64,000 nucleotides of DNA from an uncultured Planctomycetota bacterium (GCA_963849325.1 CAWKHF010000001.1:288001-352000); one strand, 5' to 3'; positions 7,863-25,607 are shown, numbered from the stretch's first letter. Notes: generated by a model not told the origin, from the letters alone. Made by a program: numbers and translations.

Positions 7863-9588
<1,726 letters not shown>

Positions 9589-9612
9589 GCCGCCGGCAGC
9601 TTGACGGCGTGA

Positions 9613-9660
9613 GAACGCCGCCGCGCGACGAGGCGATGCCTTGTTCTCGCGGCGGCGTTC
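9613..9660 (+). terminator. GC-rich stem-loop after groEL
   Basis: GAACGCCGCCGCG...CGCGGCGGCGTTC; no clear U-tract. Confidence 0.4.
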
Positions 9661-9737
9661 GCTTCCGCAATGCTTGCGAGATTGCGGAAAGCCTGGTAGG
9701 ATCACATCATCTGCTCGTTTGGCGGGAGACGAAGACC

Positions 9738-9998
9738 ATGTTTACCGCGAATGACATCGATCACCGGGTCAAAGTGCGTCCCTTCCGTCCATTCCGCATC
9801 GTGACAAGTTCCGACGAAACTTATGATGTTGCTCACCCCGAACTTATCCTGGTCGGCCAGCATGACATCGTCGTCGGCTTGACCGGCCCAAATAGTCCCA
9901 AATACTACGACCAGATCGCGCGCATTGCGCTCATGCACGTCACCGCCTTGCACGACCTGCCGGTTTCCGCCCCGCCGCCCGGCAACGGTCAGACGTAA
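9738..9998 (+). CDS. Small hypothetical protein (RPFRPFRI...YDVxHPE type)
   Basis: GGGAG RBS then [41 protein letters not shown] recall this pattern from small planctomycete proteins. Confidence 0.65.
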
Positions 9999-12600: not shown

Positions 12601-12625
12601 CGCCCGTAGCAGAGAGGATGAATGG

Positions 12626-14706
12626 ATGTGTGGTATCGCGGGGATCGTGGACCTATCGGGCGAGGGGCGGCCAGCCCCGACGACGCCCTCCGTGCCATGG
12701 CCGAGGCGATCGACCACCGCGGGCCGGACGAGGACGGCTTTCTGGAACGGCCCGGCCTGGCGTTCGCCTCGCGCCGCCTGAGCATCGTCGGCCTGGCCGA
12801 CGGCCGGCAGCCGATCCACAACGAGGACGGCTCCGTCTCCGTCGTCTTCAACGGCGAACTGTTCGACTATCCCGAGGGACGCGCCGAGCTGGAAGGGCGC
12901 GGCCACCGCTTCCCCACCCACTGCGACACCGAGCTGATTCCGCACCGCTGGGAAGACCACCAGGAAGACATCTTTCCCCACCTGCGCGGCCAGTTCGCCT
13001 TCGCCCTGTGGGACGCTCGGCTGCGCCGCGTCATCTTGGCCCGCGACCGCTTCGGCATCTGCCCGCTGTACTGGACACGGCAGACCGTGCAAGGCGGCGA
13101 ATGGCTGCTGTTCGCCTCGGAGATCAAGGCGCTGCTGGCCTCGGGTATGGTCGCGGCCCGGCCCGACCCGCGCGGCATCAATCACCTCTTCACCTTCTTC
13201 GCCCTGCCCGGCCCGGTCACCTGCTTCGAGGGCGTGCAACTGCTGCCCCCCGGCCATTACCTGCGCGTCCAGCTCGGCGCCGCCGGCGAGGCCGCTCGCG
13301 TCAGCGAGCGCATCTACTGGCAGATCGATTTCCCCGACCGGGGGCAGGAAGATTACTCGCGCGACGACAAGCAGCTCGCCGACGAGTTCGAGGAGGTGCT
13401 GATGGACGCGGTGACGCGCCGGCTGCGGGCCGACGTGCCGGTCGTGTCGTACCTGTCCGGCGGCGTCGATTCGAGCGTCGTGGTGGCCCTGGCCAGCCAT
13501 GTGCGCGGCACGCCGATCCCGACGTTCACCATCCGCATCACTCGGCCCGACCTCGACGAGACTGCCGAGGCCGCCCTGGTGGCCCGCCACGTCGGCGTCG
13601 AGCCGGTCGTCGTGGATTGCGGCCCCGACGAGGTGCTGGACAACTACCCGACCCTGATCCGCGCCGCCGAGGGGCCGGTGATCGATACCTCGTGCGCCGC
13701 CCTGCTGATGCTGGCCCGCGAGGTCCACCGCCGCGGCTACAAGGTGGCCCTGACCGGCGAAGGCGCCGACGAATGGCTGGCCGGCTATCCCTGGCACAAG
13801 GTCCACCGGCTGCTCGGCTGGCTCGACGTCGTTCCCGGCCTGCCGCTCAGCCAGATGGCGCGCCGCGCCTTCGTCCGCCTGACGGGGGCGCCGACTTTCT
13901 CCTGGACGTATGCACGGCGAGCGCAGGCGGCGGTCGGCGGACACAACGGCTGGCTGGACATCTACGGCCTGATGAGCATGTCCAAGCTGCGCTTCTTCAG
14001 CGTCGATGCTGCAAGTCGCCCAGGATCGCCCTCCTACGAGGACCTGGGCTTCGACCTCGATCGCATGCGCCGCTGGCATCCGCTCAACCGCGAGCTGGCC
14101 GTCGGCGCTCGCATCCAGCTGCCCGGCCTGCTGCTGGCCGCCAAGGGCGACCGCGTGGCGATGAACTCCTCGGTCGAGACGCGCTATCCGTTCCTCGACG
14201 AGGAGGTGTTCGATTTCCTCGCCCGCGTGCCGCCGCGCTGGAAGCTGCGCGGCCTGCGCGACAAGGTGCTGCTGCGCCGCGTGGCCGAGCGCTGGCTGCC
14301 GCGTCCATCGCCTGGCGGCGCAAGGCCATGTTCCGCGCTCCCTTCGACAGCTTCCACCTGGAGCACGCCCCGCGTTCGTCGACCAACTGCTCAGCCCCGA
14401 ATCGCTGCGGCGCACCGGCTATTTCGACCGGAGGCGGTCGAGCATTGGCGGACGGCCTTCCGCGACCTGCGGCGGCGGACGCCGCAGCGAGCGTCGGTCG
14501 AGATGGGCCTGGTCGGCGTGCTGGCCACGCAGCTGTGGCACCAGACGTTCATCGACGGCAGCCTGGCCGACCTGCCGTCGCTGGCTCACAAAAAGCGATC
14601 AGCGATCAGCGATCAGCGGTCAGCGATCAGCGGTCAGCAATCAGCCGTCGGGCAGGAAAACGGCAACGGTTCGCAGTCAACAAAGGTGCGTTTGGCTGAT
14701 CGCTGA
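12626..14706 (+). CDS. asnB: Asparagine synthase (glutamine-hydrolysing)-family amidotransferase (frameshifted)
   Basis: MCGIAGI N-terminus, HRGPD, RRLSIV, FNGE, LARDRFGI, YLSGGVDSS, LTGEGADE, ETRYPFLD. Confidence 0.88.
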
Positions 14707-14720
14707 TCGCTGATCGCTTT
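14592..14720. repeat. Inverted heptamer tandem repeat (AGCGATC)n...(GCTGATC)n overlapping the asnB 3' end
   Basis: Seven imperfect units on the left arm and about three on the right; translated as SAISDQRSAISGQQSA. Confidence 0.9.
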
Positions 14721-14729
14721 GAGGGCAAC

Positions 14730-15852
14730 ATGGCGTCGTACTCGCTGGCAACCCTGTGGTACGAACGGCAGCGCTACCTGCCGGGCGTGCTGGCGGTGGC
14801 GTTCAGCGCCCTGCTCATCGCCTTGCAGTGCGGCCTGCTGCTGGGGTTGTTCTCGATCACGTCCATCCCCATCGACCACACCCGCGCCGACGTGTGGATG
14901 GGCGCTCCGCAGGTGCTGTCCGTCGATCTGGGCCGGCCGATCCGGAGACCGCCCTGGCCCGCATGGGCGTGCAGCCGGAGGTCGAGCGCTGCGAGATCTA
15001 CCTGCAAGGGTTCGCCTTCTGGTCCAAGCCCAGCGGCGGCAACGAGCTGTGCATGGTCATCGGCTCGCGTCTCAGCCCCGACTCGCTGGGCAAGATCGAT
15101 CAGCTGACGCCGGGGCAGTGCGGCCTGCTCGCCGAGGAAGGGACCGTCGTCATCGACGAGTCGGACGTGGACCGGCTGGGCGTCAAGGGCGTCGGCTCGG
15201 TGGCGGAGATCTCCGGTCATCCGGTTCGGGTCGTCGGCCTCACGCACGGACTCAAGAGCCTGGCCGGGCCCTACGTGTTCTGCTCGGTGCCGACGGCCCG
15301 GCAGCGGTTGCCGGTGCAGCCGGGCAGACGACGACCTACGTGCTGGGCCGCTGCCGCAATCCGGAGGACGCCCCGAAGGTGGTCGATCGTCTGCGGCAAT
15401 ACTCGGACGTGTCGGCGTTCACGGCCCGCGAGTTCTCACGGCGGACGCAACTGCACTGGTTGACCAAGACCAAGGCCGGCGTCGCCCTGGGCTACGCCGC
15501 GGCGCTGGGCCTGCTGGTCGGCGCCGTCGTCACCAGTCAGACGCTGTACGCCGCCACGGTGGCGTCGCTGCGCGAGTACGCCGTGCTGCGGGCGCTGGGC
15601 ATTCCGCGCTGGCGCATGGCGTTTATGGTGGTGTCTCAGTCGTTCTGGATTGGTATCATTGGCGTAGTGCTGGCGGTGCCGGCGGTGTACGGCCTGGCCT
15701 GGGCAGCCGACCACTTCATGGGCGTGCAATTGGCCCTGCCCTGGTGGTTGCAGACGGGAGCGGTCGCGGTGACGCTGGTCATGGCCCTGCTGTCGGGCCT
15801 GTTCGCCCTCCGTTCGCTGCGGCTGATCGAGCCGGCCATGCTGTTGCGTTAA
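14730..15852 (+). CDS. ABC exporter permease (DevC/FtsX-like, frameshifted)
   Basis: LAVAFSALLIALQCGLLLG, periplasmic part, then QTLYAATVASLREYAVLRALG and three C-terminal TM helices ending IEPAMLLR. Confidence 0.85.
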
Positions 15853-15875
15853 CGTCCTCGGAGGAACGGCTCGCG

Positions 15876-16616
15876 ATGATTGACGATTCGCTGTCAACGC
15901 CGGCCCTGCAAGGCGTCCACCTGTCGCGCAGCTTCGGCTCGGGCGAGACGAGAACGACCGTCCTGCACGACGTGTCGATCGAGTTGTTCAGCGGCCAGAT
16001 CGCGCTGCTGATGGGGCCGTCCGGCAGCGGCAAATCGACGTTGCTGGCCATCCTGTCGGGCCTGCTGCGGCCCGACGGCGGCCGGGTGCTGGCCCTGGGA
16101 CAGGACCTGTGGGCGATGTCCGACCAGGAACGCGAACGCTTCCGTCTGCGGCACTGCGGCTTCATCTTCCAGGGCTACAACCTGTTCGCCGCCCTGACGG
16201 CCCGGCAGCAGCTGGAGATGGTGGTCCGCTGGGGCGAGGGCGCCACGGCCGGCGATGCCCGCCGCCGTGCCGACGAGATGCTGGCCCTGCTGGGCCTGGC
16301 CAAGAAGTCCCATCTGCGGCCGTCCGAACTGTCCGGCGGCGAGAAGCAGCGCGTGGCCATCGGCCGCGCGCTCATCAAGGACCCGAACTTCTGCTTCGCC
16401 GACGAGCCGACCAGCGCCCTGGATTGGGCGCACGGCGAGCAGGTGATCGAACTGTTGCGCAACGCCGCCCACGACCGCGGCGCCACGGTCCTGGTCGTCG
16501 CCCACGACTCGCGCATCATCGAACACGTGGATCGCGTGGTACACATGGAAGACGGCCGTCTGCGGCGACAGGATGAACGAACGCCGCTCCTGGACAAGGT
16601 AAAGCAGGAGAGGTGA
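15876..16616 (+). CDS. ABC transporter ATP-binding protein (LolD/DevA-like)
   Basis: GPSGSGKST, LSGGEKQRVAI, ADEPTSALD, VAHD. Confidence 0.93.
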   Translation: MIDDSLSTPALQGVHLSRSFGSGETRTTVLHDVSIELFSGQIALLMGPSGSGKSTLLAILSGLLRPDGGRVLALGQDLWAMSDQERERFRLRHCGFIFQGYNLFAALTARQQLEMVVRWGEGATAGDARRRADEMLALLGLAKKSHLRPSELSGGEKQRVAIGRALIKDPNFCFADEPTSALDWAHGEQVIELLRNAAHDRGATVLVVAHDSRIIEHVDRVVHMEDGRLRRQDERTPLLDKVKQER

Positions 16617-16675
16617 CCATGAACCGGCAAGCCGTGGATTCTCCCTCCGCCCGAAATTCCCGCGAGGTGGACCTC

Positions 16676-17781
16676 ATGGAATCAACCCATCCGTCCGCGC
16701 CGCCGCGGCACTGGCGGATCGCCCTGCCCGTCTCGCTGGGTGTCGTCCTGCTGTTGGCCTCGCTGGTGATCGCGGCCGTCAGTCTGCGTTCCCATGCCCA
16801 CGACAGCGCGTCGCCGTCGGACGCGACGCCGGCCCCGGCGGACAATCAGCGCTGGATGTCGCTGGGCTTGGTGTACGTCGAGGGTGGACTAACGAAGATT
16901 TACCCGCTCCAGCAAGGGCGAATCAAGAGCATCGAGGCCGTCGAGAACGAGCCGGTCGAGGCCGTGCGCCTCTGCTTCACCTGGAGGACACGATGCCGGC
17001 CCTGAAGTTGAGTCAGGCCCGGATCGCTCGGGATGCCGCCCGTGAGAAAGTGGTCGCGGCCGAGGCGAAGGTGCAGCAACTGGAGGAGCAAATCGCCGCC
17101 CAGCAAGAGGCCATCGCGGCCGCGATGGTGGACCTCCGCCGCGCCCGCTTCAATCGAGACCGGGAGAAGCGGTTCGAGAGCGACGTTGGGGGCAAGAGCA
17201 CAAGGGAGAGTTCCCAGACGGTTAAGGATCTCGACTTCCTCGTCGAGAAGGCCGAAGTGGGAGTACGGGCCGAGCAGAAGAAGCTCGCCGCCCTGCAAGC
17301 CGGTCGGGCCGAGGCGGAGTCCGGCGTCAAGCTGTATCGCATGGACGTCGAGGCCAAGAAGATCCAGGAGCGTGAGGCCCAGAAAGGCGTGGACGAGTGC
17401 GTCGTCCGTGCCCCTTACGCCGGCACGCCGCTGCGCGTACACGTCAGTGCCGGCGATGTGCTGGGCGCCAACCCTCATCAGCCGGCCATCGAGTTCGCCC
17501 CGAATCGGCCGCTGCTGGTGCGCGCCGAGGTCGAACAGGAGTTCGTCGGCCGCATCCACAAGGGCCAGGCCGTCACCATCGCCGACCACGTCACCGGCCA
17601 GGAATGCGCGCGCGGCACCGTGGCGAGCATTGCCCGCTGGTACGCCCCACGGCGTTCGTCTTCCTCTCAACTGATGCAGCTGGGCAACGACGTGCGGACC
17701 CTCGAATGCGTCATCAAGATCGACTCCACCGCGCAGGAGCTGCGCATCGGACAGCGCGTTCGCGTCGAGTTCCCGCAGTGA
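16676..17781 (+). CDS. HlyD/DevB-type periplasmic adaptor (frameshift near 16970)
   Basis: N-terminal TM helix, lipoyl-like GRIKSIEAVENEPV, coiled coil, VRAPYAG, LRIGQRVRV. Confidence 0.8.
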
Positions 17782-17979: not shown

Positions 17980-18804
17980 ATGTTGCCGGCCATCGGCTAT
18001 TCCCTGCGTGAAGAGAATCGTCCCTGGATGGACGAAGCCGCCTGGGACGGTGTCGAGATTGACTTTCAGCGTGCCAGCAATCCGCTGCGACGGACGCCGT
18101 ATCTCGAAGGCTCGTCGTTCCGTTATGTCAGCCTGCACACGCTCGATCTCTCGGTCGCCAGCCCGGAACCGCCCGCTCCGGTTTACCTCGACGCCCTCCT
18201 GAGCGTGGCGCGGGAAAACAACGCCGTCGCCATCACCGATCATCTGGGCTTCACGCACGGCAAGCCGGGAGGGGCCAGCATCGGCCACGTCACCGCGCCG
18301 CCCTGCACGCCCGCCGCCCTGGATGCCGTTTGCCGGAACATCGACCACATTCAACGGCATTTCGGCGACGTGGCGTTTTACCTGGAGAACCTGGCTCATT
18401 TCTTTGTGTGGCACGGCTCGATGAGCGAGGCCGACTTTTTCGGCCAGGTGCTGGAGCGAACCGGCTGCGGTCTCCTGCTGGATGTCACCAACGCCTATGC
18501 CAACGCCCGGAACTTCGGACACGACGCGCGAGCGTTCCTTGACGGTGTGGTCCCCCGCGCTGGCCGCATGCAGATGCACCTGGCGGGCGGTTTCACCGAC
18601 GCTCGAACCGGCCGCTACGTGGATAGCCATTCGCAGCCGATCCCCGAGTCCGTGTGGGAGCTGTATCGCCACGCCCTCACGCTGGGACGAGGCAAGGTGG
18701 ACGCGGTTTTCATCGAACGCGACTGGAACGCTCCCGACGAGGCCGGCTGGCGTCAGGAGGTGCGACAAGCTCGGCGGATCGCTCGGGAAGTGGAGGCCTC
18801 GTGA
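17980..18804 (+). CDS. DUF692 / multinuclear non-heme iron oxidative enzyme (MNIO; MbnB/TglH/ChrH family)
   Basis: Metal-ligand motifs in family order: LHTLDLS, TDHLGF, YLENL, LLLDVTNAYANARN, QMHLAGG, VDSHSQPIP, FIERD. Confidence 0.9.
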   Translation: MLPAIGYSLREENRPWMDEAAWDGVEIDFQRASNPLRRTPYLEGSSFRYVSLHTLDLSVASPEPPAPVYLDALLSVARENNAVAITDHLGFTHGKPGGASIGHVTAPPCTPAALDAVCRNIDHIQRHFGDVAFYLENLAHFFVWHGSMSEADFFGQVLERTGCGLLLDVTNAYANARNFGHDARAFLDGVVPRAGRMQMHLAGGFTDARTGRYVDSHSQPIPESVWELYRHALTLGRGKVDAVFIERDWNAPDEAGWRQEVRQARRIAREVEAS

Positions 18805-19535
18805 TGAAAGCTCCCCAAGCGAGCGTGGGTTATCACGAGCAACTCCACGACTGGGTCGAGGCGCTGACGACGGGCGACATCCGCGCGGTGTGCGACGCCC
18901 TGGCCGAAGGAGAAGCCGACGACGTGCGCCGGTTCCTGGACAACAGCGTCGGCGAACGGCGCAAGCTGCTGCGGCAAGAACTGGCCTTGGTGGCCCTGGC
19001 ATTTGATGACTTTGACGACCTTGTTTGTGACTATATGCGAGCGGTGCCGCAGACGGCCTACGATCCCGCTTGCAGCGATCGACAGCGGTTCTTGTGCTGG
19101 CTGCGACGAGTCCGGCCGTTGACGGCCATGCAGGGCGATTTCGTCGCCTACCAGGAAGCGGAGTACGCCGTCGCGGCATTGGCCCGCACGCAGCGTCCGC
19201 GGCACCTGGCCTTTCAGGGGATGGCAACGAAGGCCCGGCAGCAGGCAGCACGGCTCGACGCGGACGTTACCCTGCGGCTCCATCTGAATCCCATCCGGAT
19301 CGGAACGCGCCTGGCCCTGCCCGGCCGCGATTTCGGCGAGGTACTGTTCTTCGCCGCCGGCGACCGCGTGGCGAGCGTCGGGCTGGATTCAAGGATCCGG
19401 GAACTCGTGGACCTGCTCGAACCAGGCCCGCGCACTCTGGAGGAATGCACGAGCCGACTACGTCCCGTCAGCCGGGAGGAGTTGGCAATCCGGTGCCGCG
19501 ACCTCGCCGACAAGGGACTTGTGGCTTTCGCGTGA
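18804..19535 (+). CDS. Putative MNIO partner protein (DUF2063/RRE-like)
   Basis: TGATG overlap with the MNIO gene; helical N-terminal domain ending DFVAYQEAEY; C-terminal winged-helix/PqqD-like pattern (RELVDLL...TLEEC...EELAIRCRDLADKGLV). Confidence 0.6.
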   Translation: MKAPQASVGYHEQLHDWVEALTTGDIRAVCDALAEGEADDVRRFLDNSVGERRKLLRQELALVALAFDDFDDLVCDYMRAVPQTAYDPACSDRQRFLCWLRRVRPLTAMQGDFVAYQEAEYAVAALARTQRPRHLAFQGMATKARQQAARLDADVTLRLHLNPIRIGTRLALPGRDFGEVLFFAAGDRVASVGLDSRIRELVDLLEPGPRTLEECTSRLRPVSREELAIRCRDLADKGLVAFA

Positions 19536-19694
19536 TCAACCCCGCCGATGTTTTTCGCTCCTCGCGCATCGGGCGGGTTTATCCAAAGAGGAGCACCTGT
19601 CAGACTGTTTTCGCACCCCAGCCGATAAGTAAACCCGCCAACGGTTGGCGGAAGCATTGGCGAACGGTCGGAAACCAACAAAGGAGGACATATC

Positions 19695-19898
19695 ATGTCC
19701 CGTATCGACATCATTCGTGCGTGGAAGGACGAGGCTTATCGGCAGGGTCTGAGCGAGGCCCAGCGCGCCGCCCTGCCGGCCAATCCGGCCGGCATGAGCG
19801 AGTTGACCGAGGCCGAGGCGGCCGCGGTCGAAGGCAAACTCAGCTCCGCCTGTTGCAGCACCTGTCATTGCAGGGCCGCCGTCGTGGCGGTTCGCTAA
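19695..19898 (+). CDS. RiPP precursor with mersacidin/lichenicidin-type (class II lanthipeptide) leader and Cys-rich core
   Basis: Strong AAGGAGG RBS; leader IIRAWKDEAYRQGL...LPANPAG.SELTEAEAAAVEG; core KLSSACCSTCHCRAAVVAVR. Confidence 0.9.
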   Translation: MSRIDIIRAWKDEAYRQGLSEAQRAALPANPAGMSELTEAEAAAVEGKLSSACCSTCHCRAAVVAVR

Positions 19899-19912
19899 AC
19901 CGCCGTTCTCCG

Positions 19913-19948
19913 CGAGCGGGGAGTTGAGGCTCCCCGCTCGTTCGTTTT
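19913..19948 (+). terminator. Stem-loop with partial U-tract after the precursor gene
   Basis: CGAGCGGGGAG-TTGAGG-CTCCCCGCTCG followed by TTCGTTTT. Confidence 0.65.
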
Positions 19949-19984
19949 CCCTTTCTCATTCCTGGCTTCCCGAAGAAGGACTCG

Positions 19985-21583
19985 ATGGCCATGAACCCTT
20001 CATCTCCCGAACGCGGTGCCTTTGGGTTCCTGGAAGCGATCGAGCCATTGATCCGCCAGGGACGCCATCGTTTCCGCGACGAAGCGGAGGCGCTGGTCCG
20101 TCGCTATCCCGAGGCGCCCTTCGCCGTCTCCGCGATCGAGGAGACGTTGGCGACATCGCTCGAAGAGCAGCTCTTGACCGTACTCGGGCGCACCATGGTC
20201 CTGGAGCTGCAAGTGGCCCGCTTGCAGGGGTTGCTGTCCGGCGCGACCGCCGCGGAGCGTTTCGACAACTTCCTCTGTCGCTTGCGTCAGCCGGAGGTTG
20301 CCGCCGCTCTGCTCGAAGAATATCCCGTTCTGGCAAATCTGGTGACGCAAGGCATCGACGACTGGACCGCCTTCAGTCTGGAGTTCCTCCGACATCTGTG
20401 CGCGGACTGGCAGGCCATCCGCTCGTCGTTCCGGCCGGACGCCGAGCCTGGTCCGGTGATCGCCGTCGAGTTCGCCGGCGACCGCCACCGTGGCGGTCGA
20501 TCGGTGCTGATCGTGACCTTCCGCTCCGGTTGGCGATTGGTGTACAAGCCCAAGCCCCTGGCCGTCGAAGTGCATTTCCAACGACTGCTGGCCTGGCTCA
20601 ATGCGCACGGCGCTCACCCCGCCTTTCCGATGACGCCCGTCCTGGACCGAGGCGGACACGGCTGGGTCGCCTTCGTCGCCGCCTACGGCTGCAGCACCGA
20701 AGCGGAGATTCAGCGTTTCTACCAGCGGCAGGGCGCCTACCTGGCGCTTCTGTATGGACTGAGGGCAACCGACTTTCACCTGGAGAATGTGATCGCCGCG
20801 GGTGAGCAGCCGGTGCCGGTGGACTTGGAAGCTCTCTTCCATCACGGCCCGGCCGACGCGGCTGGCCAGCTGCACGCCGATTCCGTCCGAGGCGTGCGTT
20901 TTCTGCCGCACCGTAGCCTCGTTGCGGACACCGGCTCGTTCGTCGATTTCAGCTCCCTGGGAGCGACGGCCGGCCAGCTCTCGCCTTACGAGACACCCTG
21001 CTGGGAGGGGATGGGCACCGACGAGATGCGTGTGGTCCCGCGACGAATGGAGATGCCCGCCGCGCGCAATCGGCCGACCCTTCGCGGTCAAGAGATCAAC
21101 CTTTTCGATTATCGAGAAGAGTTGATCCACGGCTTCCAGGCCACGTATCGGATGCTGGAGACGCATCGCGAGGAACTGCTCGACGCGGGCGGCCCCATCG
21201 ACTCCTTTGCCCGGGACGAGGTGCGTTTTCTCGCGCGAACGACGCAGTGTTACGCCTTGCTGCTCCGTCAGAGCTATCATCCGGACTTGCTGCGCGACGG
21301 CCCGGCACGCAGCCGTTTCTTTCGGCAACTCGACCAGCGGGTGGCGCAATCGCCCTGGTTCGCGCGCCTCCGGGACGCCGAGGATGCCGACCTGTTGCGG
21401 CAGGACATTCCGCTGTTCACCACCCGTCCCGCTTCACGCGATCTGTGGACCAGTTCGGGAGAGCGGATCGTCGCGTTCTTCGAGCAAACCGGCGTGGAAC
21501 TGGTGCGCCAGCGTCTGCGACAACTGGGACCAGCGGACCTTCAACAGCAACTCACGATCATCCGGGCAACCTTCGCTCAGTGA
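19985..21583 (+). CDS. Stand-alone LanM-type dehydratase domain (DUF4135) lacking the LanC-like cyclase
   Basis: GDRHRGGRSV, LVYKPK, TDFHLENV, VDLEAL, RFLARTT, DIPLF; ends LQQQLTIIRATF where the LanM N-domain normally ends; next gene starts 50 bp later. Confidence 0.88.
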   Translation: MAMNPSSPERGAFGFLEAIEPLIRQGRHRFRDEAEALVRRYPEAPFAVSAIEETLATSLEEQLLTVLGRTMVLELQVARLQGLLSGATAAERFDNFLCRLRQPEVAAALLEEYPVLANLVTQGIDDWTAFSLEFLRHLCADWQAIRSSFRPDAEPGPVIAVEFAGDRHRGGRSVLIVTFRSGWRLVYKPKPLAVEVHFQRLLAWLNAHGAHPAFPMTPVLDRGGHGWVAFVAAYGCSTEAEIQRFYQRQGAYLALLYGLRATDFHLENVIAAGEQPVPVDLEALFHHGPADAAGQLHADSVRGVRFLPHRSLVADTGSFVDFSSLGATAGQLSPYETPCWEGMGTDEMRVVPRRMEMPAARNRPTLRGQEINLFDYREELIHGFQATYRMLETHREELLDAGGPIDSFARDEVRFLARTTQCYALLLRQSYHPDLLRDGPARSRFFRQLDQRVAQSPWFARLRDAEDADLLRQDIPLFTTRPASRDLWTSSGERIVAFFEQTGVELVRQRLRQLGPADLQQQLTIIRATFAQ

Positions 21584-21632: not shown

Positions 21633-23918
21633 ATGTGGCGACGCTACGTATGGGTTCGGCAGAACGATCAGAGCGACTGTGGCGCGGCGTCGCTGGCCAC
21701 GGTCGCTCTGCACTATCGCCGAAGCATTGGACTGGAACAAGTGCGCGACTGGACCGGCACCGATCGCATCGGCGCGACGCTGCTCGGCCTGCTGCGCGGG
21801 GCCGAGAAGCTCGGCTTCGCCAGCAAGGCCGTCAAGGCGCCGTATGAGGCGCTGGCCCATCTGCCTCTGCCGGCCATCGCTCATCTCCGGACGACGGATA
21901 ACAGCGGCCATTTCCTTGTTCTGCACAAAGTAAGCAAGGACGCCGTCGTGGTGGCCGACCCGGCGCGCGGCGTCGAGAAGCGCTCGCGCACCGACTTTTG
22001 CCGCGATTGGACCGGCCATTTGCTGATGCTCGTGCCGCAGACCGATCTGCACGGCCCGCGCGGCCCGACCCCGCTGCCTCCGTGGCGGCGTTTCCTGGGC
22101 CTGCTCCGCTCGCACACCGGCATCCTCACCGAAGCCATCTTCTGCGCCCTGCTCATGACGCTGCTGGGCGTGTCCACGTCCTACTTCGTCCAGCATCTGG
22201 TGGACTCGGTCCTCGTCCGTCACGAGAGACGACTGCTCAACGCCCTGGGCATCGGCATGGTGCTGATCGTGGTGTTCCGCACGCTGTTCGCCCTGTTGCG
22301 GCAGTACCTGCTCGCGCACGTCGCCCGCAAGGTGGACCTCGCCGTCATCGCCGGTTACAGCCGGCATTTGCTCGGCCTGCCCATGCGTTTCTTCGAGTCG
22401 CGTCGCGTCGGCGAGATCCTGTCGCGGGCCATCGACACGGCCAAGGTGCGCGAAGCCATCAGCGGCACCACGACCACCGCCGTGGTAGACGGCGTGCTGG
22501 TGGTGCTGCTGCTGGGCGTGCTGTGGATGTACGACTTCCGGCTGGCCCTGACGGCGACGGCGTTCGTGCCCGTGCTGTTTGTGGCCGCCCTCCTGCTGCA
22601 ACCGGCCACGTTGAAGCAGTCATGGCAGGCCATGGAGAACTGGTCGCAACTGTCGGCCCACCTGATTGAGAACGTCGGCGCCGTGCAGACCATCAAGGCG
22701 TTCGGCGCCGAGCGGGCCCGAGCCGAGGAAGGCGATCGACACCTGGTCGGCTTCGCCCAGGCGAACTTCACCCTCCAGAAATTCGGTCTGAGCATGAACG
22801 CCCTGAGCCTGTTTCTGACGGCCCTGGCCGGCATCATCATCTTGTGGTACGGCGGCAACCGCGTCATGGACGGCGCGCTGACCATTGGCCAGTTGATGTT
22901 CTTTTACTCGCTGCTGGTCTACTTGCTGGAACCGCTGAACCGCCTGGCGGGCGTCAACCTGAAGTTGCAGGAAGCCTTTGTCGCCGTGGATCGGCTCTAT
23001 CAGGTACTCGATCTGGAGCTGGAACAGCCGGACGGAGCGAGCAAAACGACCTTCGCCGGACTACGCGACGGCATCGAGCTGCGCGACGTGACCTTCCGCT
23101 ATGGCAGTCGGACCAACGTGCTGGACCAGATCAACCTGCGCATCCCCGCCGGCAAGACGGTGGCCGTGGTCGGCGAGAGCGGCTCCGGTAAATCCACGCT
23201 TCTGAATCTGCTGATGGGCTTCCACTCGCCGACCGAAGGCGGCATTCTCGTGGACGGCGTCGATCTGCGCGACTTCGACCTGGATTCGTGGCGGGGCCGG
23301 ATGGGATTGGTTTCGCAGGAGCCGTTTATCTTCAATGGCACGGTGCGCAACAACATCGCCCTGGGCCGGCCGGAGGCGAGCGTCGCGGAGGTGATCGAGG
23401 CGGCGCGGGCGGCGGGACTCGCCGAGTTCATCGCCCACCTGCCGCAGCGCTACGACACGCTCATCGGCGAGCGCGGCGCCAACCTGTCCGGCGGTCAGCG
23501 GCAGCGTCTGGCCATCGCCCGCGCGCTGCTGCGGAAACCGGATGTCCTGCTGTTCGATGAGGCCACCAGCCATCTGGACACGGCCACCGAGCAGGCCATT
23601 CAGGAAAACCTGCATACGGTGTTGAGCGGCCGGACGGTGATCCTGGTGGCGCATCGTCTGAGCACGATCAAGGACGCCGACCTCATCTACGTGCTGCACC
23701 AGGGCCGCATCGCCGAGCAGGGCACGCATCGGCAACTGCTAGCCCAGCAAGGACTGTATAGCCGGCTGTGCCGCAAGCAGACCGGCGCGGACGAGGAATC
23801 ATCCAGGGCCGGAGAGAACGGCGTCGCGCCGGTCGAGACCGCGGGCGCGACGCCGCTCTCCCGGATGGACAGTGCGAGAAACGGTAAGACCCCACGGGAG
23901 ACCATTCGTCATGCGTGA
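21633..23918 (+). CDS. Peptidase C39-containing ABC transporter (LanT/PCAT)
   Basis: QNDQSDCGAASL, GHFLVL, VADPARG (Cys-His-Asp triad); TM domain; GESGSGKST, LSGGQRQR, FDEATSHLD. Confidence 0.95.
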   Translation: MWRRYVWVRQNDQSDCGAASLATVALHYRRSIGLEQVRDWTGTDRIGATLLGLLRGAEKLGFASKAVKAPYEALAHLPLPAIAHLRTTDNSGHFLVLHKVSKDAVVVADPARGVEKRSRTDFCRDWTGHLLMLVPQTDLHGPRGPTPLPPWRRFLGLLRSHTGILTEAIFCALLMTLLGVSTSYFVQHLVDSVLVRHERRLLNALGIGMVLIVVFRTLFALLRQYLLAHVARKVDLAVIAGYSRHLLGLPMRFFESRRVGEILSRAIDTAKVREAISGTTTTAVVDGVLVVLLLGVLWMYDFRLALTATAFVPVLFVAALLLQPATLKQSWQAMENWSQLSAHLIENVGAVQTIKAFGAERARAEEGDRHLVGFAQANFTLQKFGLSMNALSLFLTALAGIIILWYGGNRVMDGALTIGQLMFFYSLLVYLLEPLNRLAGVNLKLQEAFVAVDRLYQVLDLELEQPDGASKTTFAGLRDGIELRDVTFRYGSRTNVLDQINLRIPAGKTVAVVGESGSGKSTLLNLLMGFHSPTEGGILVDGVDLRDFDLDSWRGRMGLVSQEPFIFNGTVRNNIALGRPEASVAEVIEAARAAGLAEFIAHLPQRYDTLIGERGANLSGGQRQRLAIARALLRKPDVLLFDEATSHLDTATEQAIQENLHTVLSGRTVILVAHRLSTIKDADLIYVLHQGRIAEQGTHRQLLAQQGLYSRLCRKQTGADEESSRAGENGVAPVETAGATPLSRMDSARNGKTPRETIRHA

Positions 23919-25180
23919 AGCCGTCATGGTCGATCTGCGGGATTGCACGGAGTTCCGTCAGACGTTGCTGGCTAAGCCGCCGCGCTTTCTGCATGGCGTG
24001 GTCCTGTTGCTGGCCGGCCTGCTGGCCACGGCGCTGATCTGGGCCGCTGTCGCCCGCGCCAACCTCGTCGTCCGCGCCCAAGGCCGTGTGCGGCCCGTGA
24101 CCTCGCCCAAGAAGGTTTTCACCGCCGGGGCCGGGACGATGCCGCGCTCCAGCGGCGGGCGCGTCGTGGCCGTCTACTTCCACGTAGGCGACCAGGTGCA
24201 TCGGGGCGATCTGCTGATCCAGCTGGATACGGAGTCGCTGGGCAATGAAATCACCCGGCGAAAGCGAACGATTCAGGCGGGCGAGGAGGAACTGTCCCGG
24301 CTCGACCGCCTGAAGGACATGCTGGAGAGACAAAGTACGGCGACCCGCGCGAAGTGCGCAGTCCGAGCTGACCCAGGCGACGGCCGAGGTACGGCAAGCG
24401 AGCGAGCGGCGCGTCGTGGATGTCGAGCTGGCTCGCTTGGAATGGGAAGCGGCGGAGGACGAGCTGCGCCGCACCAAGCAGTTGGCGGCGAACAATGCCA
24501 CGACGGTCGCGGATCTGGTCAAGGCACGGAATCGTCTGCGCGAGGCGCAGGAGAAACTCCGCAAGGCGCGCCTATCGGTGGAGGATAGCAAGGTTGAGGT
24601 CATGAAGCGTGCTTTGGAACTGAGCGAGCGCGACGCGGCGTTGAAGCGCGAAGAACTGGAACTGAAACGGGTGAGCAAACGGGGCGAGGTCGAGGCCGCC
24701 CGCCTCGAGTTGGCCAACCTGGAGCTGGAGCGCAAGCAAGCGGAGCTGCGTTCGCCACTGACCGGCATTGTCACGAGCGGCGACGTGAAGATTGGCGACC
24801 TGCTCGAAGCGGGCAAGTCCGTGGTGGAGATCGCCGAGCAGCACGGTTTCCACTTCGAGGCGGAGGTGTCGAGCACCGAGGTGGCCCATTTGCGCGTGGG
24901 CATGCCGGCACGGATCAAGCTCGATGCCTACGATTATCAGCAGTACGGCACGTTATCGGGGACGGTGTGTTTCATCTCGCCGGACTCCGGCGTGCGTCAA
25001 GGCCAGGGAAACGCCGTCTACGTGGTGAAGATCGTCTGTGACGGCGAGGAGGTCGGGCGCGAAGGAGCACGCGGCAAGGTCAAGCTCGGCATGGCGGGAC
25101 AGGTGGAGATCGTGACGGAGCAGGAGAGCATTCTCTCGCTGTTGCTGCGGCACATACGCCAGAGCATCAGCCTGGGATGA
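23911..25180 (+). CDS. HlyD-family secretion adaptor (frameshift near 24355)
   Basis: TM helix, VRAQGRVRP, coiled coil, LRSPLTGIV, KLDAYDYQQYGTLSGTV, GMAGQVEIVT. Confidence 0.9.
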
Positions 25181-25267
25181 GAACCGAAAGAACGGGAGAG
25201 ACATAAGGAACCTTTTAATACCTTAAAAGATCCTTATATCCTCCCAGTTTTCTCTTTGATCGGCTTG

Positions 25268-25425
25268 GAAGCCGCGTTGGAGCGGATCGCTCGACGCGAT
25301 GATTTCCAGAAAATGAGACCAACTCGATTGTGCAAACGCTGTCTGCACAATCGACTGGTCCGAATATACTTCCGCGAAGCGGATTATCTGAAGAAGGGTT
25401 GGACGGCTAAAGCCGCGCCCTATTC
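25268..25425 (-). pseudogene. Remnant of a DUF1016/YhcG N-terminal domain gene
   Basis: GRGFSRPTLLQIIRFAEVYSDQSIVQTAFAQSSWSHFLEII...DPLQRGF resembles the GRGFS...LSWSH signature; no start and no nuclease domain. Confidence 0.6.
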
Positions 25426-25607
25426 GGCCGTCAATGGTCTCGACACTGTCAAGACAATCGGCTCGCCGTAGGTGGCACGCTATTCGCCGCGGATTGCGCG
25501 GCGAATACGGTTCTTGCCCTGGTTCCACGCAGGGAGCTACAATTGGGTATGATGTGGTGGACATCGATCCGCGACGCTATGCCCCCAAGCAGGGGAGACA
25601 AGATCCC

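What the first reader, a model, noticed from the sequence alone, without database searches (positions are those of the whole stretch)
19695..19898. Precursor with class II lanthipeptide leader but a compact CCxxCxC core and non-canonical EG cleavage site
Seen: the leader has IIRAWKD..YR..L...P.NPAG..EL and ends AVEG rather than GG/GA. The predicted 20-aa core KLSSACCSTCHCRAAVVAVR has 4 Ser/Thr and 4 Cys plus a His packed into 10 residues, then an unmodifiable aliphatic tail. Inference: the Cys/His cluster looks more like an MNIO substrate or metal-binding motif than a known lantibiotic ring pattern. The tail could be a follower or recognition sequence.
Basis: partly seen in the sequence, partly recalled or inferred. 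Interest (0 to 1): 0.8.

Follow-up and report, generated by a model that had tools for sequence, protein, structure and literature searches.

The report
Lanthipeptide-style precursor recruited by iron oxidase
A small secreted-peptide gene in a planctomycete carries the address tag of a lanthipeptide, but it sits with an iron-dependent cysteine oxidase and a lanthipeptide enzyme that has lost its ring-forming half, which points to an undescribed, probably metal-binding, kind of modified peptide.

Summary
The 67-aa ORF at 19695-19898 is real. Its leader scores 69 bits on TIGR03898 (cut-off 23.5). It has an AGGAGG site 7 nt upstream and a 13-bp hairpin after the stop.

It lies in a six-gene + strand cluster:
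- an MNIO (DUF692)
- an RRE-bearing MNIO partner
- the precursor
- a DUF4135-only LanM half, with all nine CylM catalytic residues and no LanC
- a C39 peptidase/ABC exporter
- HlyD

The order MNIO-partner-precursor-DUF4135 recurs in 6 of 6 usable loci, from Gemmataceae, Pirellulales and metagenomes. The MNIO-linked dehydratases form one clade in which the cyclase is a stub or absent.

The conserved core feature is C-x-x-C-H, or a near variant, plus a further Cys; it is not CCxxCxC as such. 71 of the 74 best homologues keep at least 2 Cys and at least 1 His.

The cut site is probably G47-K48|L49, the register of GG relatives, not E-G|K.

Best reading: a hybrid RiPP with MNIO-oxidised Cys and dehydrated Ser/Thr, not a lanthipeptide. 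The chemistry is inferred. My literature searches found no paper on this combination. Raw reads could not confirm the sequence.

The parts
17980..18804 (+). MNIO (DUF692, PF05114) enzyme, 274 aa
   Evidence: PF05114 scores 164.7 bits against a cut-off of 25. The nearest NCBIfam models are all below their cut-offs: BufB 139.6/310, HvfB 114/360, ApyH 82/400, MbnB 34.4/325, ChrH 30.4/600. H53, D87, H88, E136, D168, N171, H200, D215, H217 and E246 are invariant in 8 aligned MNIOs. These residues align to the H/DH/E/D..N/H/D.H/E motifs of 3bww and TglH.
18804..19535 (+). MNIO partner protein, 243 aa: an N-terminal helical DUF2063-like domain plus a C-terminal RiPP recognition element (RRE). Its ATG overlaps the MNIO stop (TGATG).
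   Evidence: No Pfam, NCBIfam or PDB sequence hit. The AF2 model has pLDDT 93.4 and pTM 0.86. VIA-align gives Z 13.5 to 3dee (NGO1945; 183 aligned, rmsd 3.6) and Z 13.5 to TglI 8hi7_A (215 aligned, rmsd 4.7); the next entry scores 8.7. Residues ~157-243 match the RREs of MibB, TbtB, NisB, TbiB1, MccB, LynD and PqqD at Z 5.3-8.6. The start was read.
19682..19687 (+). Shine-Dalgarno AGGAGG, 7 nt before the precursor ATG
   Evidence: Read directly.
19695..19838 (+). Leader peptide (residues 1-48), mersacidin/lichenicidin type, ending V-E-G-K
   Evidence: TIGR03898 scores 69 bits against a cut-off of 23.5. The invariant columns are I7, R8, A9, W10, K11, D12, R16, L19, L27, P28, P31, G33, L37 and G47. 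The register of the cut is argued.
19839..19898 (+). Predicted 19-aa core LSSACCSTCHCRAAVVAVR plus the stop codon
   Evidence: The C-x-x-C-H class makes up 38 of the 74 best homologues.
19912..19951 (+). Terminator-like hairpin (13-bp stem, 4-nt loop) with a T-rich tail, between the precursor and the dehydratase gene
   Evidence: pattern scan; dG -26.8 kcal/mol, z -3.83, and 0 of 200 shuffles fold as well.
19985..21583 (+). Stand-alone LanM dehydratase half (DUF4135), 532 aa, with no LanC cyclase domain
   Evidence: PF13575 scores 402.8 bits. TIGR03897 scores 532.4 bits but covers only model positions 2-519 of 932. LicM2 (6st5) scores 258 bits, with query 55-529 aligned to chain 89-570 of 979. 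All of CylM D252, H254, K274, D347, H349, N352, D364, R506 and T512 are matched by identical residues. The roles of these residues were read in passages of PMC4550811.
21633..23918 (+). PCAT-type peptidase C39 / ABC exporter, 761 aa
   Evidence: PF03412 scores 113.4, PF00664 147.8 and PF00005 124 bits. PCAT1 (4ry2) scores 540.9 bits. The Cys (QNDQSDCG), His (SGHFLV) and Asp (VVADP) align to the same residues of PCAT1.
23872..25180 (+). HlyD-family periplasmic adaptor, split into two frames near 24356/24357
   Evidence: HlyD Pfam and NCBIfam hits fall on both ORFs. The intact 480-aa G504 homologue aligns with residues 1-207 in frame 1 and residues 207-480 in frame 2.

Best explanation
This is the substrate gene of a hybrid RiPP pathway. 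The pathway took over a class II lanthipeptide leader and dehydratase but replaced lanthionine cyclisation with MNIO chemistry.

Proposed route:
1. The ~48-residue leader docks the precursor on two machines. One is the RRE of the MNIO partner protein. The other is the cyclase-less LanM half.
2. The MNIO/partner pair oxidises one or more Cys of the C-x-x-C-H cluster. The most likely products are five-membered Cys-derived heterocycles (thiooxazole, or oxazolone-thioamide), as made by its nearest named relatives BufB and HvfB.
3. The DUF4135 enzyme phosphorylates the interleaved Ser/Thr and eliminates the phosphate, giving Dha/Dhb.
4. The C39 domain of the ABC exporter cuts after G47-K48. The transporter with HlyD secretes a ~19-residue product, probably a copper or other metal binder in which His takes part.

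Shown here: the gene content, its conservation, intact catalytic residues, absence of a cyclase, and the conserved Cys/His pattern.

Inferred: which residues are modified, the order of steps, the heterocycle type, metal binding, and the exact cut site.
For: Context:
- MNIO, partner, precursor, DUF4135-only protein, C39-ABC and HlyD lie in one + strand run. The MNIO stop and the partner start overlap.

Conservation:
- The order MNIO-partner-precursor(s)-DUF4135 is seen in 6 of 6 loci that hold a close partner homologue (>=37% identity) and enough flank. These are the window, G504/L009, G491/L010, L016 and L017 (both Pirellulales), and the metagenome contig L019.

No cyclase:
- PF05147 is absent from the protein, from the cluster, from this genome (84.7% complete) and from G504 (97% complete).
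- The same search rang in 3 of the 5 genomes tested (G215, G422, G491).

Dehydratase:
- It is competent by sequence: 9 of 9 CylM catalytic and elimination residues are identical.
- Excised dehydratase domains of CylM, HalM2 and NukM are reported to suffice for dehydration (passage in PMC10676384).

Lineage:
- All MNIO-linked DUF4135 proteins fall in one 14-row clade (FastTree 99, 65 rows; IQ-TREE SH-aLRT 99, 42 rows).
- Ten clade members were scanned. None of them has more than LanC model positions 2-114 of 350, at <=26.6 bits.

MNIO and partner:
- The MNIO has invariant metal-ligand-type residues.
- The partner has the NGO1945/TglI fold plus an RRE.

Core:
- 71 of the 74 best profile hits keep >=2 Cys and >=1 His. 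Motif classes are CxxCH 38, CxCH 12, TH.C 13 and other 11.
- Ser/Thr are interleaved with the Cys.
- A sister MNIO/partner pair (50% and 29-31% identity) in another family of the same class sits next to (CRSC)n peptides, without a DUF4135 gene and with no leader match reported for those two genomes (G207, G315). Cys-x-x-Cys therefore follows the MNIO, while the dehydratase follows the leader.

Known MNIO chemistry on Cys is taken from Table 1 of PMC12452194.
Against: - There is no chemical or expression evidence.
- The MNIO is below every named equivalog cut-off, so its reaction cannot be transferred with confidence.
- In the dehydrazole enzyme CcaM, the DUF4135 domain alone was inactive without its fused cyclase-like domain (PMC10676384). 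Stand-alone activity is therefore not guaranteed.
- The window's HlyD carries a frameshift. GroEL and a DevB-like gene in the same window are also split. The assembly is indel-prone, or some genes are decaying.
- Reads could not verify the locus.
- G491 has a LanC-like ORF on another contig, so a trans cyclase is not excluded there.
- Pirellulales members keep a LanC stub.
- One related locus (L014) is decayed: it has a 30-aa MNIO remnant and no precursor.
- Only 3 of the 5 loci where DNA downstream of the DUF4135 gene was examined carry the C39-ABC/HlyD pair next to the dehydratase.
- G-K is not a known C39 site.
Confidence: 0.65

Rival explanations
1. It is still a true lanthipeptide. The stand-alone dehydratase makes Dha/Dhb, and thioether rings form spontaneously or through a cyclase encoded elsewhere. 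The MNIO adds only a secondary tailoring step.
For: The leader and dehydratase are of the LanM type. The core has both Ser/Thr and Cys. G491 has a LanC-like ORF on another contig. Pirellulales members keep the first ~50-115 LanC positions.
Against: No LanC domain was found in this genome or in the 97%-complete G504. The cyclase stub lacks most of the domain. Cys and Ser/Thr are adjacent or one residue apart (CCSTCHC), which leaves little room for the usual rings. The cyclase has been lost throughout the MNIO-linked clade.
Confidence: 0.12
2. Only the MNIO pair modifies the core. The DUF4135 protein serves as a leader-binding scaffold or as a kinase that leaves phospho-Ser/Thr, not as a dehydratase.
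For: CcaM's isolated DUF4135 domain was inactive. Some close cores have few Ser/Thr (1 in P0016, P0382 and P0385).
Against: The four residues needed for phosphate elimination in CylM (D252, H254, R506, T512) and the five phosphorylation residues are all kept. Every one of the 74 cores parsed has at least one Ser/Thr.
Confidence: 0.1
3. The cluster in this genome is inactive or decaying, and the ORF is a relic.
For: HlyD is frameshifted. A related locus (L014) is clearly decayed.
Against: MNIO, partner, precursor, DUF4135 and C39-ABC are all collinear over full length with G504, at 78-92% identity and with no frame break. The leader shows a synonymous excess. An essential-type gene (GroEL) is also split in the window, which points to assembly indels as the cause of the splits.
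Confidence: 0.06
4. The C-x-x-C-H motif is a haem-c attachment site or plain metal site on an otherwise unmodified secreted peptide.
For: 38 of the 74 best homologues carry the literal CxxCH pattern.
Against: 36 of the 74 do not. The peptide has a cleaved RiPP leader and a PCAT exporter, not a Sec signal. Two modifying enzymes are conserved beside it.
Confidence: 0.03

Closest known systems
Class II lanthipeptides of the mersacidin/lichenicidin type (LanA/LanM/LanT; LicM2, PDB 6st5)
   Same: The leader family is the same (TIGR03898, 69 bits). The dehydratase domain scores 258 bits to LicM2 and is ~50% identical to full-length planctomycete and Chloroflexi LanMs. Export is by a C39-ABC transporter.
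   Different: There is no LanC cyclase domain in the enzyme, the cluster or the genome. An MNIO and an RRE partner have been added. The core is a compact Cys/His cluster, not spaced Ser/Thr...Cys. The cut site is G-K, not GG/GA/GS.
MNIO-modified RiPPs: bufferins (BufBC, thiooxazole), oxazolins (HvfBC) and methanobactins (MbnBC, oxazolone-thioamide)
   Same: It shares the MNIO (PF05114) with a following partner of DUF2063-like + RRE fold, a Cys-rich core, and a plausible metal-binding product.
   Different: It scores below all equivalog cut-offs. Its partner lacks the DUF2063 signature (PME-type 2 in the terms of PMC12452194, section 18 read). The precursor has a lanthipeptide leader, not a Sec signal or an MbnA-type leader. 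A LanM-type dehydratase and a PCAT are part of the cluster.
Dehydrazoles (carnazolamide; YcaO + DUF4135 'LanMbC' hybrid, PMC10676384)
   Same: This is a precedent for a LanM-type dehydratase re-used in a non-lanthipeptide RiPP together with a backbone-heterocycle-forming enzyme. There, Ser next to a heterocycle is the dehydration site (abstract and passages read).
   Different: The heterocycle enzyme here is an MNIO, not a YcaO. No YcaO was seen among the cluster ORFs scanned. The dehydratase here has no cyclase-like domain at all. It keeps a LanM-type leader on its substrate, whereas CcaM is leader-independent.
(CRSC)n-repeat peptides beside sister MNIO/partner pairs in another family of the same class (L034, L037; not described in the papers I read)
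   Same: The MNIO is 50% identical and the partner 29-31% identical. The core is a Cys-x-x-Cys cluster with Ser between the Cys.
   Different: These loci have a different leader, no DUF4135 and no C39 domain detected.

Membership tests
Class II (LanM-type) lanthipeptide system | Precursor with a LanM-type leader | tested here: met
   TIGR03898 scores 69 bits against a cut-off of 23.5.
Class II (LanM-type) lanthipeptide system | DUF4135 kinase/lyase-type dehydratase domain with catalytic residues | tested here: met
   PF13575 scores 402.8 bits. 9 of 9 CylM residues are identical.
Class II (LanM-type) lanthipeptide system | LanC-like zinc cyclase domain fused to the dehydratase | tested here: not met
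   TIGR03897 covers only positions 2-519 of 932. There is no PF05147 in the protein, in the genome, or in G504. The same search rang in G215, G422 and G491.
Class II (LanM-type) lanthipeptide system | (Methyl)lanthionine rings in the product | not testable with these tools
   Needs mass spectrometry or NMR.
MNIO-modified RiPPs (general) | MNIO enzyme (PF05114) with metal-ligand residues | tested here: met
   PF05114 scores 164.7 bits against a cut-off of 25. H53, D87, H88, E136, D168, N171, H200, D215, H217 and E246 are invariant. That these are the iron ligands rests on their alignment to 3bww and TglH and on recall of MbnB.
MNIO-modified RiPPs (general) | Partner protein of DUF2063-like + RRE fold encoded after the MNIO | tested here: met
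   Z 13.5 to 3dee and to TglI 8hi7_A; the next entry scores 8.7.
MNIO-modified RiPPs (general) | Adjacent precursor with conserved Cys | tested here: met
Bufferin / oxazolin / methanobactin / aminopyruvatide / chryseobasin MNIO equivalogs | Score above the NCBIfam equivalog cut-off | tested here: not met
   BufB 139.6<310, HvfB 114<360, ApyH 82<400, MbnB 34.4<325, ChrH 30.4<600.
PCAT / double-glycine leader processing | C39 domain with the Cys-His-Asp triad | tested here: met
   The alignment to PCAT1 scores 540.9 bits. The Cys, His and Asp align to identical residues. The PCAT1 residue roles are recalled. The LahT triad Cys27/His101/Asp117 was read.
PCAT / double-glycine leader processing | GG, GA or GS at positions -2/-1, with hydrophobic residues at -4, -7 and -12 | tested here: inconclusive
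   This precursor has G-K. V45, A42 and L37 fit positions -4, -7 and -12. Among the 74 best homologues, position -1 is K in 42, R in 10, Q in 7, T in 1 and G in 14.
Dehydrazoles (YcaO + LanMbC) | YcaO cyclodehydratase in the cluster, and a class III-type cyclase domain fused to DUF4135 | tested here: not met
   No YcaO or cyclase hit was found among the cluster ORFs scanned against Pfam.

The most novel reading that the evidence does not exclude
Planctomycetes (Gemmataceae, Pirellulales) make a so far undescribed RiPP class. A lanthipeptide leader is read by both an RRE-bearing MNIO partner and a LanM that has shed its cyclase. The secreted product would carry Cys-derived heterocycles or thioamides next to dehydroamino acids and a His. 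That would make it a new chalkophore/metallophore scaffold, possibly with new MNIO chemistry on a C-x-x-C-H motif.
Probability: 0.45. Interest if true: 0.85.

Novelty: new variant of a known kind. Interest (0 to 1): 0.72.

Why it matters
- It would be the first MNIO pathway that borrows the leader and dehydratase of class II lanthipeptides. It would therefore be a natural example of RiPP classes being recombined through a shared leader.
- It offers a defined, small test system (a 19-residue core, three enzymes) for three questions: what an unassigned MNIO clade does to Cys in C-x-x-C-H; whether a stand-alone DUF4135 works without any cyclase domain; and how one leader serves an RRE and a LanM.
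- The product may be a new metal-binding or antibiotic scaffold from a phylum with few characterised natural products.
- Annotation pipelines currently name these genes 'type 2 lantibiotic' and 'LanM' (names). That is misleading if no lanthionine is made.

Tried and rejected
Raw-read check:
- The only run offered (X1) held 7% of the sampled words.
- When laid at 85% likeness it gave only short contig scraps, most under 90% alike. It did not usefully cover the precursor or the HlyD frameshift.
- No RNA holder was listed.
- The sequence therefore could not be confirmed on reads.

Complex prediction (partner alignment A4 plus precursor alignment A2):
- Score 0.02 against a mark of 0.32. The verdict was 'no answer', so it gives no support and no evidence against.

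Other attempts that led nowhere:
The 10-row alignment found only 4 loci, two of them too short to judge (L020, L021).
- The partner gave nothing by sequence against Pfam, NCBIfam or the PDB. Only the fold comparison was informative.
- Foldseek alone gave weak E-values (1.1e-2).
- The first IQ-TREE run did not finish.
- Cluster look-up of 10 partner homologues returned no names.
- Three look-ups of earlier findings returned nothing.

Ideas rejected:
- The upstream AsnB-like gene and DevCAB-like exporter (12622-17781) as part of the cluster: their place is taken by unrelated genes in G504, L016 and L017.
- Reading CCxxCxC as the family motif: the first Cys is not conserved.

Literature searches that found no paper on this combination:
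- MNIO + LanM
- DUF692 + DUF4135
- MNIO + lanthipeptide + dehydratase
- DUF4135 + multinuclear
- MNIO + dehydroalanine
- DUF692 + LanM

These hits were judged from titles and abstract openings in the search listings. Only the papers cited elsewhere in this report were opened.

In the MNIO landscape paper PMC12452194, the words DUF4135, PF13575, C39, kinase, LanM, mersacidin, Gemmat and Planctomyc do not occur in the main text. Its figures and supplements were not seen and may list such clusters.

Full report
**Observation.**
- Residues 5-47 match NCBIfam TIGR03898 (mersacidin/lichenicidin family type 2 lantibiotic) at 69 bits against a cut-off of 23.5. Pfam has no model for it.
- An AGGAGG lies 7 nt before the ATG.
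- Fourteen nt after the stop there is a 13-bp hairpin with a T-rich tail (dG -26.8 kcal/mol, z -3.83). This is a terminator-like element between the precursor and the next enzyme gene.
- A same-genus genome (G504) has two tandem paralogues of identical length. Against them the leader shows 14/5 and 10/5 synonymous/non-synonymous codon differences, and the core shows 2/5 and 1/6. The leader is under purifying selection and the core flanks vary, as usual for RiPP precursors.

**Surroundings.** The ORF sits in a + strand run of six genes.
- MNIO/DUF692, 17980-18804 (PF05114, 164.7 bits).
- A 243-aa ORF, 18804-19535, whose ATG overlaps the MNIO stop.
- The precursor.
- A 532-aa protein that is only the DUF4135 dehydratase half of LanM, 19985-21583. 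PF13575 scores 402.8 bits, and TIGR03897 is matched over positions 2-519 of 932.
- A C39-peptidase ABC exporter, 21633-23918. It scores 540.9 bits to PCAT1, with Cys, His and Asp aligned.
- A HlyD adaptor.

The HlyD gene is broken by one frame change near 24356/24357 relative to the intact G504 homologue. GroEL (7954-9998) and a DevB-like adaptor (16613-17781) are also split in this window. The assembly therefore looks indel-prone. By contrast, MNIO, partner, precursor, DUF4135 and the exporter are collinear over full length with G504 at 78-92% identity.

**The enzymes.**
- *DUF4135 protein.* It aligns to LicM2 (6st5) at 258 bits and ends where the LicM2 alignment reaches residue ~570 of 979. 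It has residues identical to CylM D252, H254, K274, D347, H349, N352, D364, R506 and T512. Passages of PMC4550811 assign these to phosphorylation (D347, H349, N352, D364, K274) and phosphate elimination (D252, H254, R506, T512).
- *MNIO.* It is closest to BufB (139.6 bits) and HvfB (114 bits) but falls below all equivalog cut-offs. Ten His/Asp/Glu/Asn positions are invariant across eight related MNIOs. They align with the conserved motifs of 3bww and TglH.
- *Partner.* The 243-aa protein has no sequence-family hit. Its AF2 model (pLDDT 93.4) matches NGO1945 (3dee) and TglI (8hi7_A) at Z 13.5, with the next entry at 8.7. Its last ~90 residues match the RREs of many RiPP enzymes. It is an MNIO partner of the kind that PMC12452194 calls PME-type 2 (section 18 read). 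An exhaustive search gave 199 representatives of this family at E<=0.001.

**Related loci.** Precursor-profile hits are rare in genomes: 2 of 401 in a phylum sample and 4 of 267 in the order, G000 included in both counts.
- Starting from the partner protein, I obtained loci from Gemmataceae (G504 = L009/L013/L018, G491 = L010/L015, L014), Pirellulales (L016, L017) and metagenomes (L019-L021).
- All six loci with a close partner homologue and enough flank show MNIO-partner-precursor(s)-DUF4135 in that order. These are the window, L009, L010, L016, L017 and L019.
- L014 is decayed: it has a 30-aa MNIO remnant, no precursor within 20 kb, and a DUF4135 match in two pieces.
- L020 has MNIO-partner and then ends ~500 nt later with no precursor hit. 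L021 is too short to judge.
- The C39-ABC/HlyD pair follows the dehydratase in 3 of the 5 loci where downstream DNA was examined: the window, L009 and L016.
- More distant partner homologues occur in 11 of 20 sampled genomes of another family of the same class. I fetched six of these loci. Two (L034, L037) have an MNIO (50% identity) and a partner (29-31%), preceded by peptides ending in (CRSC)n repeats, without a DUF4135 gene and with no leader match reported for their genomes (G207, G315). Three (L035, L036, L039) show only a partner-like hit. One (L038) shows none at the thresholds used.
- Cys-x-x-Cys cores thus travel with this MNIO/partner lineage. The lanthipeptide leader travels with the dehydratase.

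**Loss of the cyclase.** A length-limited search (292-931 aa) gave 220 homologues of the DUF4135 protein at E<=1e-10.
- I built trees from 65 of these sequences: the MNIO-linked ones, the PF13575-only ones on contigs of 20 kb or more, and the LanC-bearing ones of 840 aa or more. All other rows were left out. All MNIO-linked proteins fall in one 14-row clade (FastTree local support 99). A 42-row IQ-TREE run gave SH-aLRT 99 for the same set.
- I scanned ten clade members. P0074 (G491) shows no LanC signal. The other nine, among them the Pirellulales proteins of L016 and L017 (P0152, P0121), keep only LanC model positions 2-47 up to 2-114 of 350, at 9.8-26.6 bits.
- The window and G504 proteins likewise gave no LanC hit.
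- A whole-genome search for PF05147 found nothing in this genome (84.7% complete) or in G504 (97% complete). It did ring in G215, G422 and G491.
- The G491 hit is on a different contig from the cluster, and its 2.8-kb locus has no DUF4135 part.

**The core.** I ran a profile of 22 close precursors against the 5.8-billion-protein set. It returned 1793 proteins at E<=1e-8, which is the whole leader family.
- I parsed the 74 best of the 120 listed rows.
- Motif classes: 38 have C-x-x-C-H, 12 have C-x-C-H, 13 have T-H-x-C after CC, and 11 have none of the three motifs (near variants such as CCSKTCHC, cores without the pattern, or fragments).
- 71 of the 74 have at least two Cys and at least one His. 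The exceptions are P0021, the fragment P0393, and P0414.
- All 74 have at least one Ser/Thr.
- The first Cys of the window's CC is Ile, Gly, Asp or Val in many relatives. The conserved unit is therefore C-x-x-C-H plus a later Cys, not CCxxCxC.
- Loci of the C-x-x-C-H class (window, L009, L010, L016, L017) and of the C-x-C-H class (L019) were verified to be MNIO- and DUF4135-linked. The T-H-x-C class could not be checked.

**Cleavage.** Relatives with a true GG align their first Gly with G47.
- Among the 74 parsed homologues, the residue after G47 is K in 42, R in 10, Q in 7, T in 1 and G in 14.
- LahT150 needs hydrophobic residues at -4, -7 and -12 (sections 8-10 of PMC6363468).
- A cut after K48 gives V, A and L at those positions. 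A cut after G47 gives A, E and E.
- I therefore place the cut at G-K|L. That is non-canonical at position -1, not at position -2.

**Mechanism and comparison.** Table 1 of PMC12452194 lists what characterised MNIOs do to Cys:
- thiooxazole (BufBC)
- oxazolone-thioamide (MbnBC, HvfBC)
- excision (TglHI)
- macrocycle/imidazolidinedione (ChrHI)

The nearest named relatives here are BufB and HvfB. A Cys-derived heterocycle with copper affinity is therefore the most likely outcome, but this is inference.

A LanM-type dehydratase working in a non-lanthipeptide pathway has a precedent in the dehydrazoles. There, DUF4135 is paired with a YcaO and dehydrates Ser that precede azoles (PMC10676384, abstract and passages). 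That paper also reports that excised CylM, HalM2 and NukM dehydratase domains suffice for dehydration, although CcaM's does not.

The system fails the lanthipeptide membership test on the cyclase. It fails the tests for each named MNIO family on score. It works like both in part.

**Novelty.** Six full-text searches and word searches inside the MNIO landscape paper found no description of an MNIO with a DUF4135/LanM-type partner or a mersacidin-type leader. The search hits were judged from their listings (titles and abstract openings), and only the cited papers were opened. Figures and supplements were not seen. Sources name these genes 'type 2 lantibiotic' and 'LanM'. I rate it a new variant of known kinds, namely a new hybrid RiPP family. 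Confidence in the gene-level picture is good. Confidence in the chemistry is low.

Noticed in passing
window 7954-9998 (+): GroEL (Cpn60) is split into two overlapping ORFs, 7954-8841 (profile 1-215) and 8592-9998 (profile 271-446). This is a frameshift in an essential-type gene, which suggests indel errors in the assembly.
   Followed up: partly
window 12622-17781 (+): An AsnB-type asparagine synthase (380 bits to TIGR01536) is followed by DevC-, DevA- and DevB-like ABC exporter genes. The DevB-like adaptor is split at ~17000 (16613-17005 and 16993-17781). These genes are not conserved next to the RiPP cluster in other genomes.
   Followed up: partly
window 24356-24357: There is a frame change inside the HlyD adaptor of the cluster. 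Both halves are 76-90% identical to the intact G504 protein.
   Followed up: yes
L034:8347-8523 (+) and L037:11621-11430 (-): Peptides of 58 and 63 aa have a shared LV.EV.KLRSG leader-like stretch and a C-terminal (CRSC)n repeat (11 Cys each). They lie directly upstream of an MNIO + partner pair in two genomes of another family of the same class. This is a likely separate MNIO precursor family, and I did not find it in the papers I read.
   Followed up: partly
L034:11744-15660: A CRISPR-like array of at least 56 copies of a ~36-nt repeat, with a period of ~72 nt, lies about 1 kb downstream of that MNIO cluster.
   Followed up: partly
L014:9864-12343: A decayed version of the cluster in another Gemmataceae MAG. 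It has a 30-aa MNIO remnant, an intact-looking partner, a DUF4135 gene whose Pfam match is in two pieces, and no precursor within 20 kb.
   Followed up: partly
L017:11195-13777 and L016:11287-13545: Pirellulales MNIO-linked DUF4135 proteins carry C-terminal extensions that match only the first ~50 positions of the 350-position LanC model (16.4 and 9.8 bits). These are stubs of a lost cyclase. Their relatives P0127, P0130 and P0139 reach 24-27 bits.
   Followed up: yes
window 25223-25564 (-): A 113-aa ORF matches only part of DUF1016_N (43.8 bits) at the downstream edge of the cluster. It may be a gene fragment.
   Followed up: no
L011:1391-1074 (-) (G422): A precursor with the same leader type but a long Gly/Asn/Gln/Ser-rich, Cys-free core (GGLNKGGGNNQNQGGQGG...) lies next to a DUF4135 gene that is cut by the contig end.
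   Followed up: no
window 19851-19865 (core residues CSTCH): The conserved C-x-x-C-H is literally the haem-c attachment motif. I treat this as coincidence or a metal site, given the leader, the exporter and the two enzymes.
   Followed up: no
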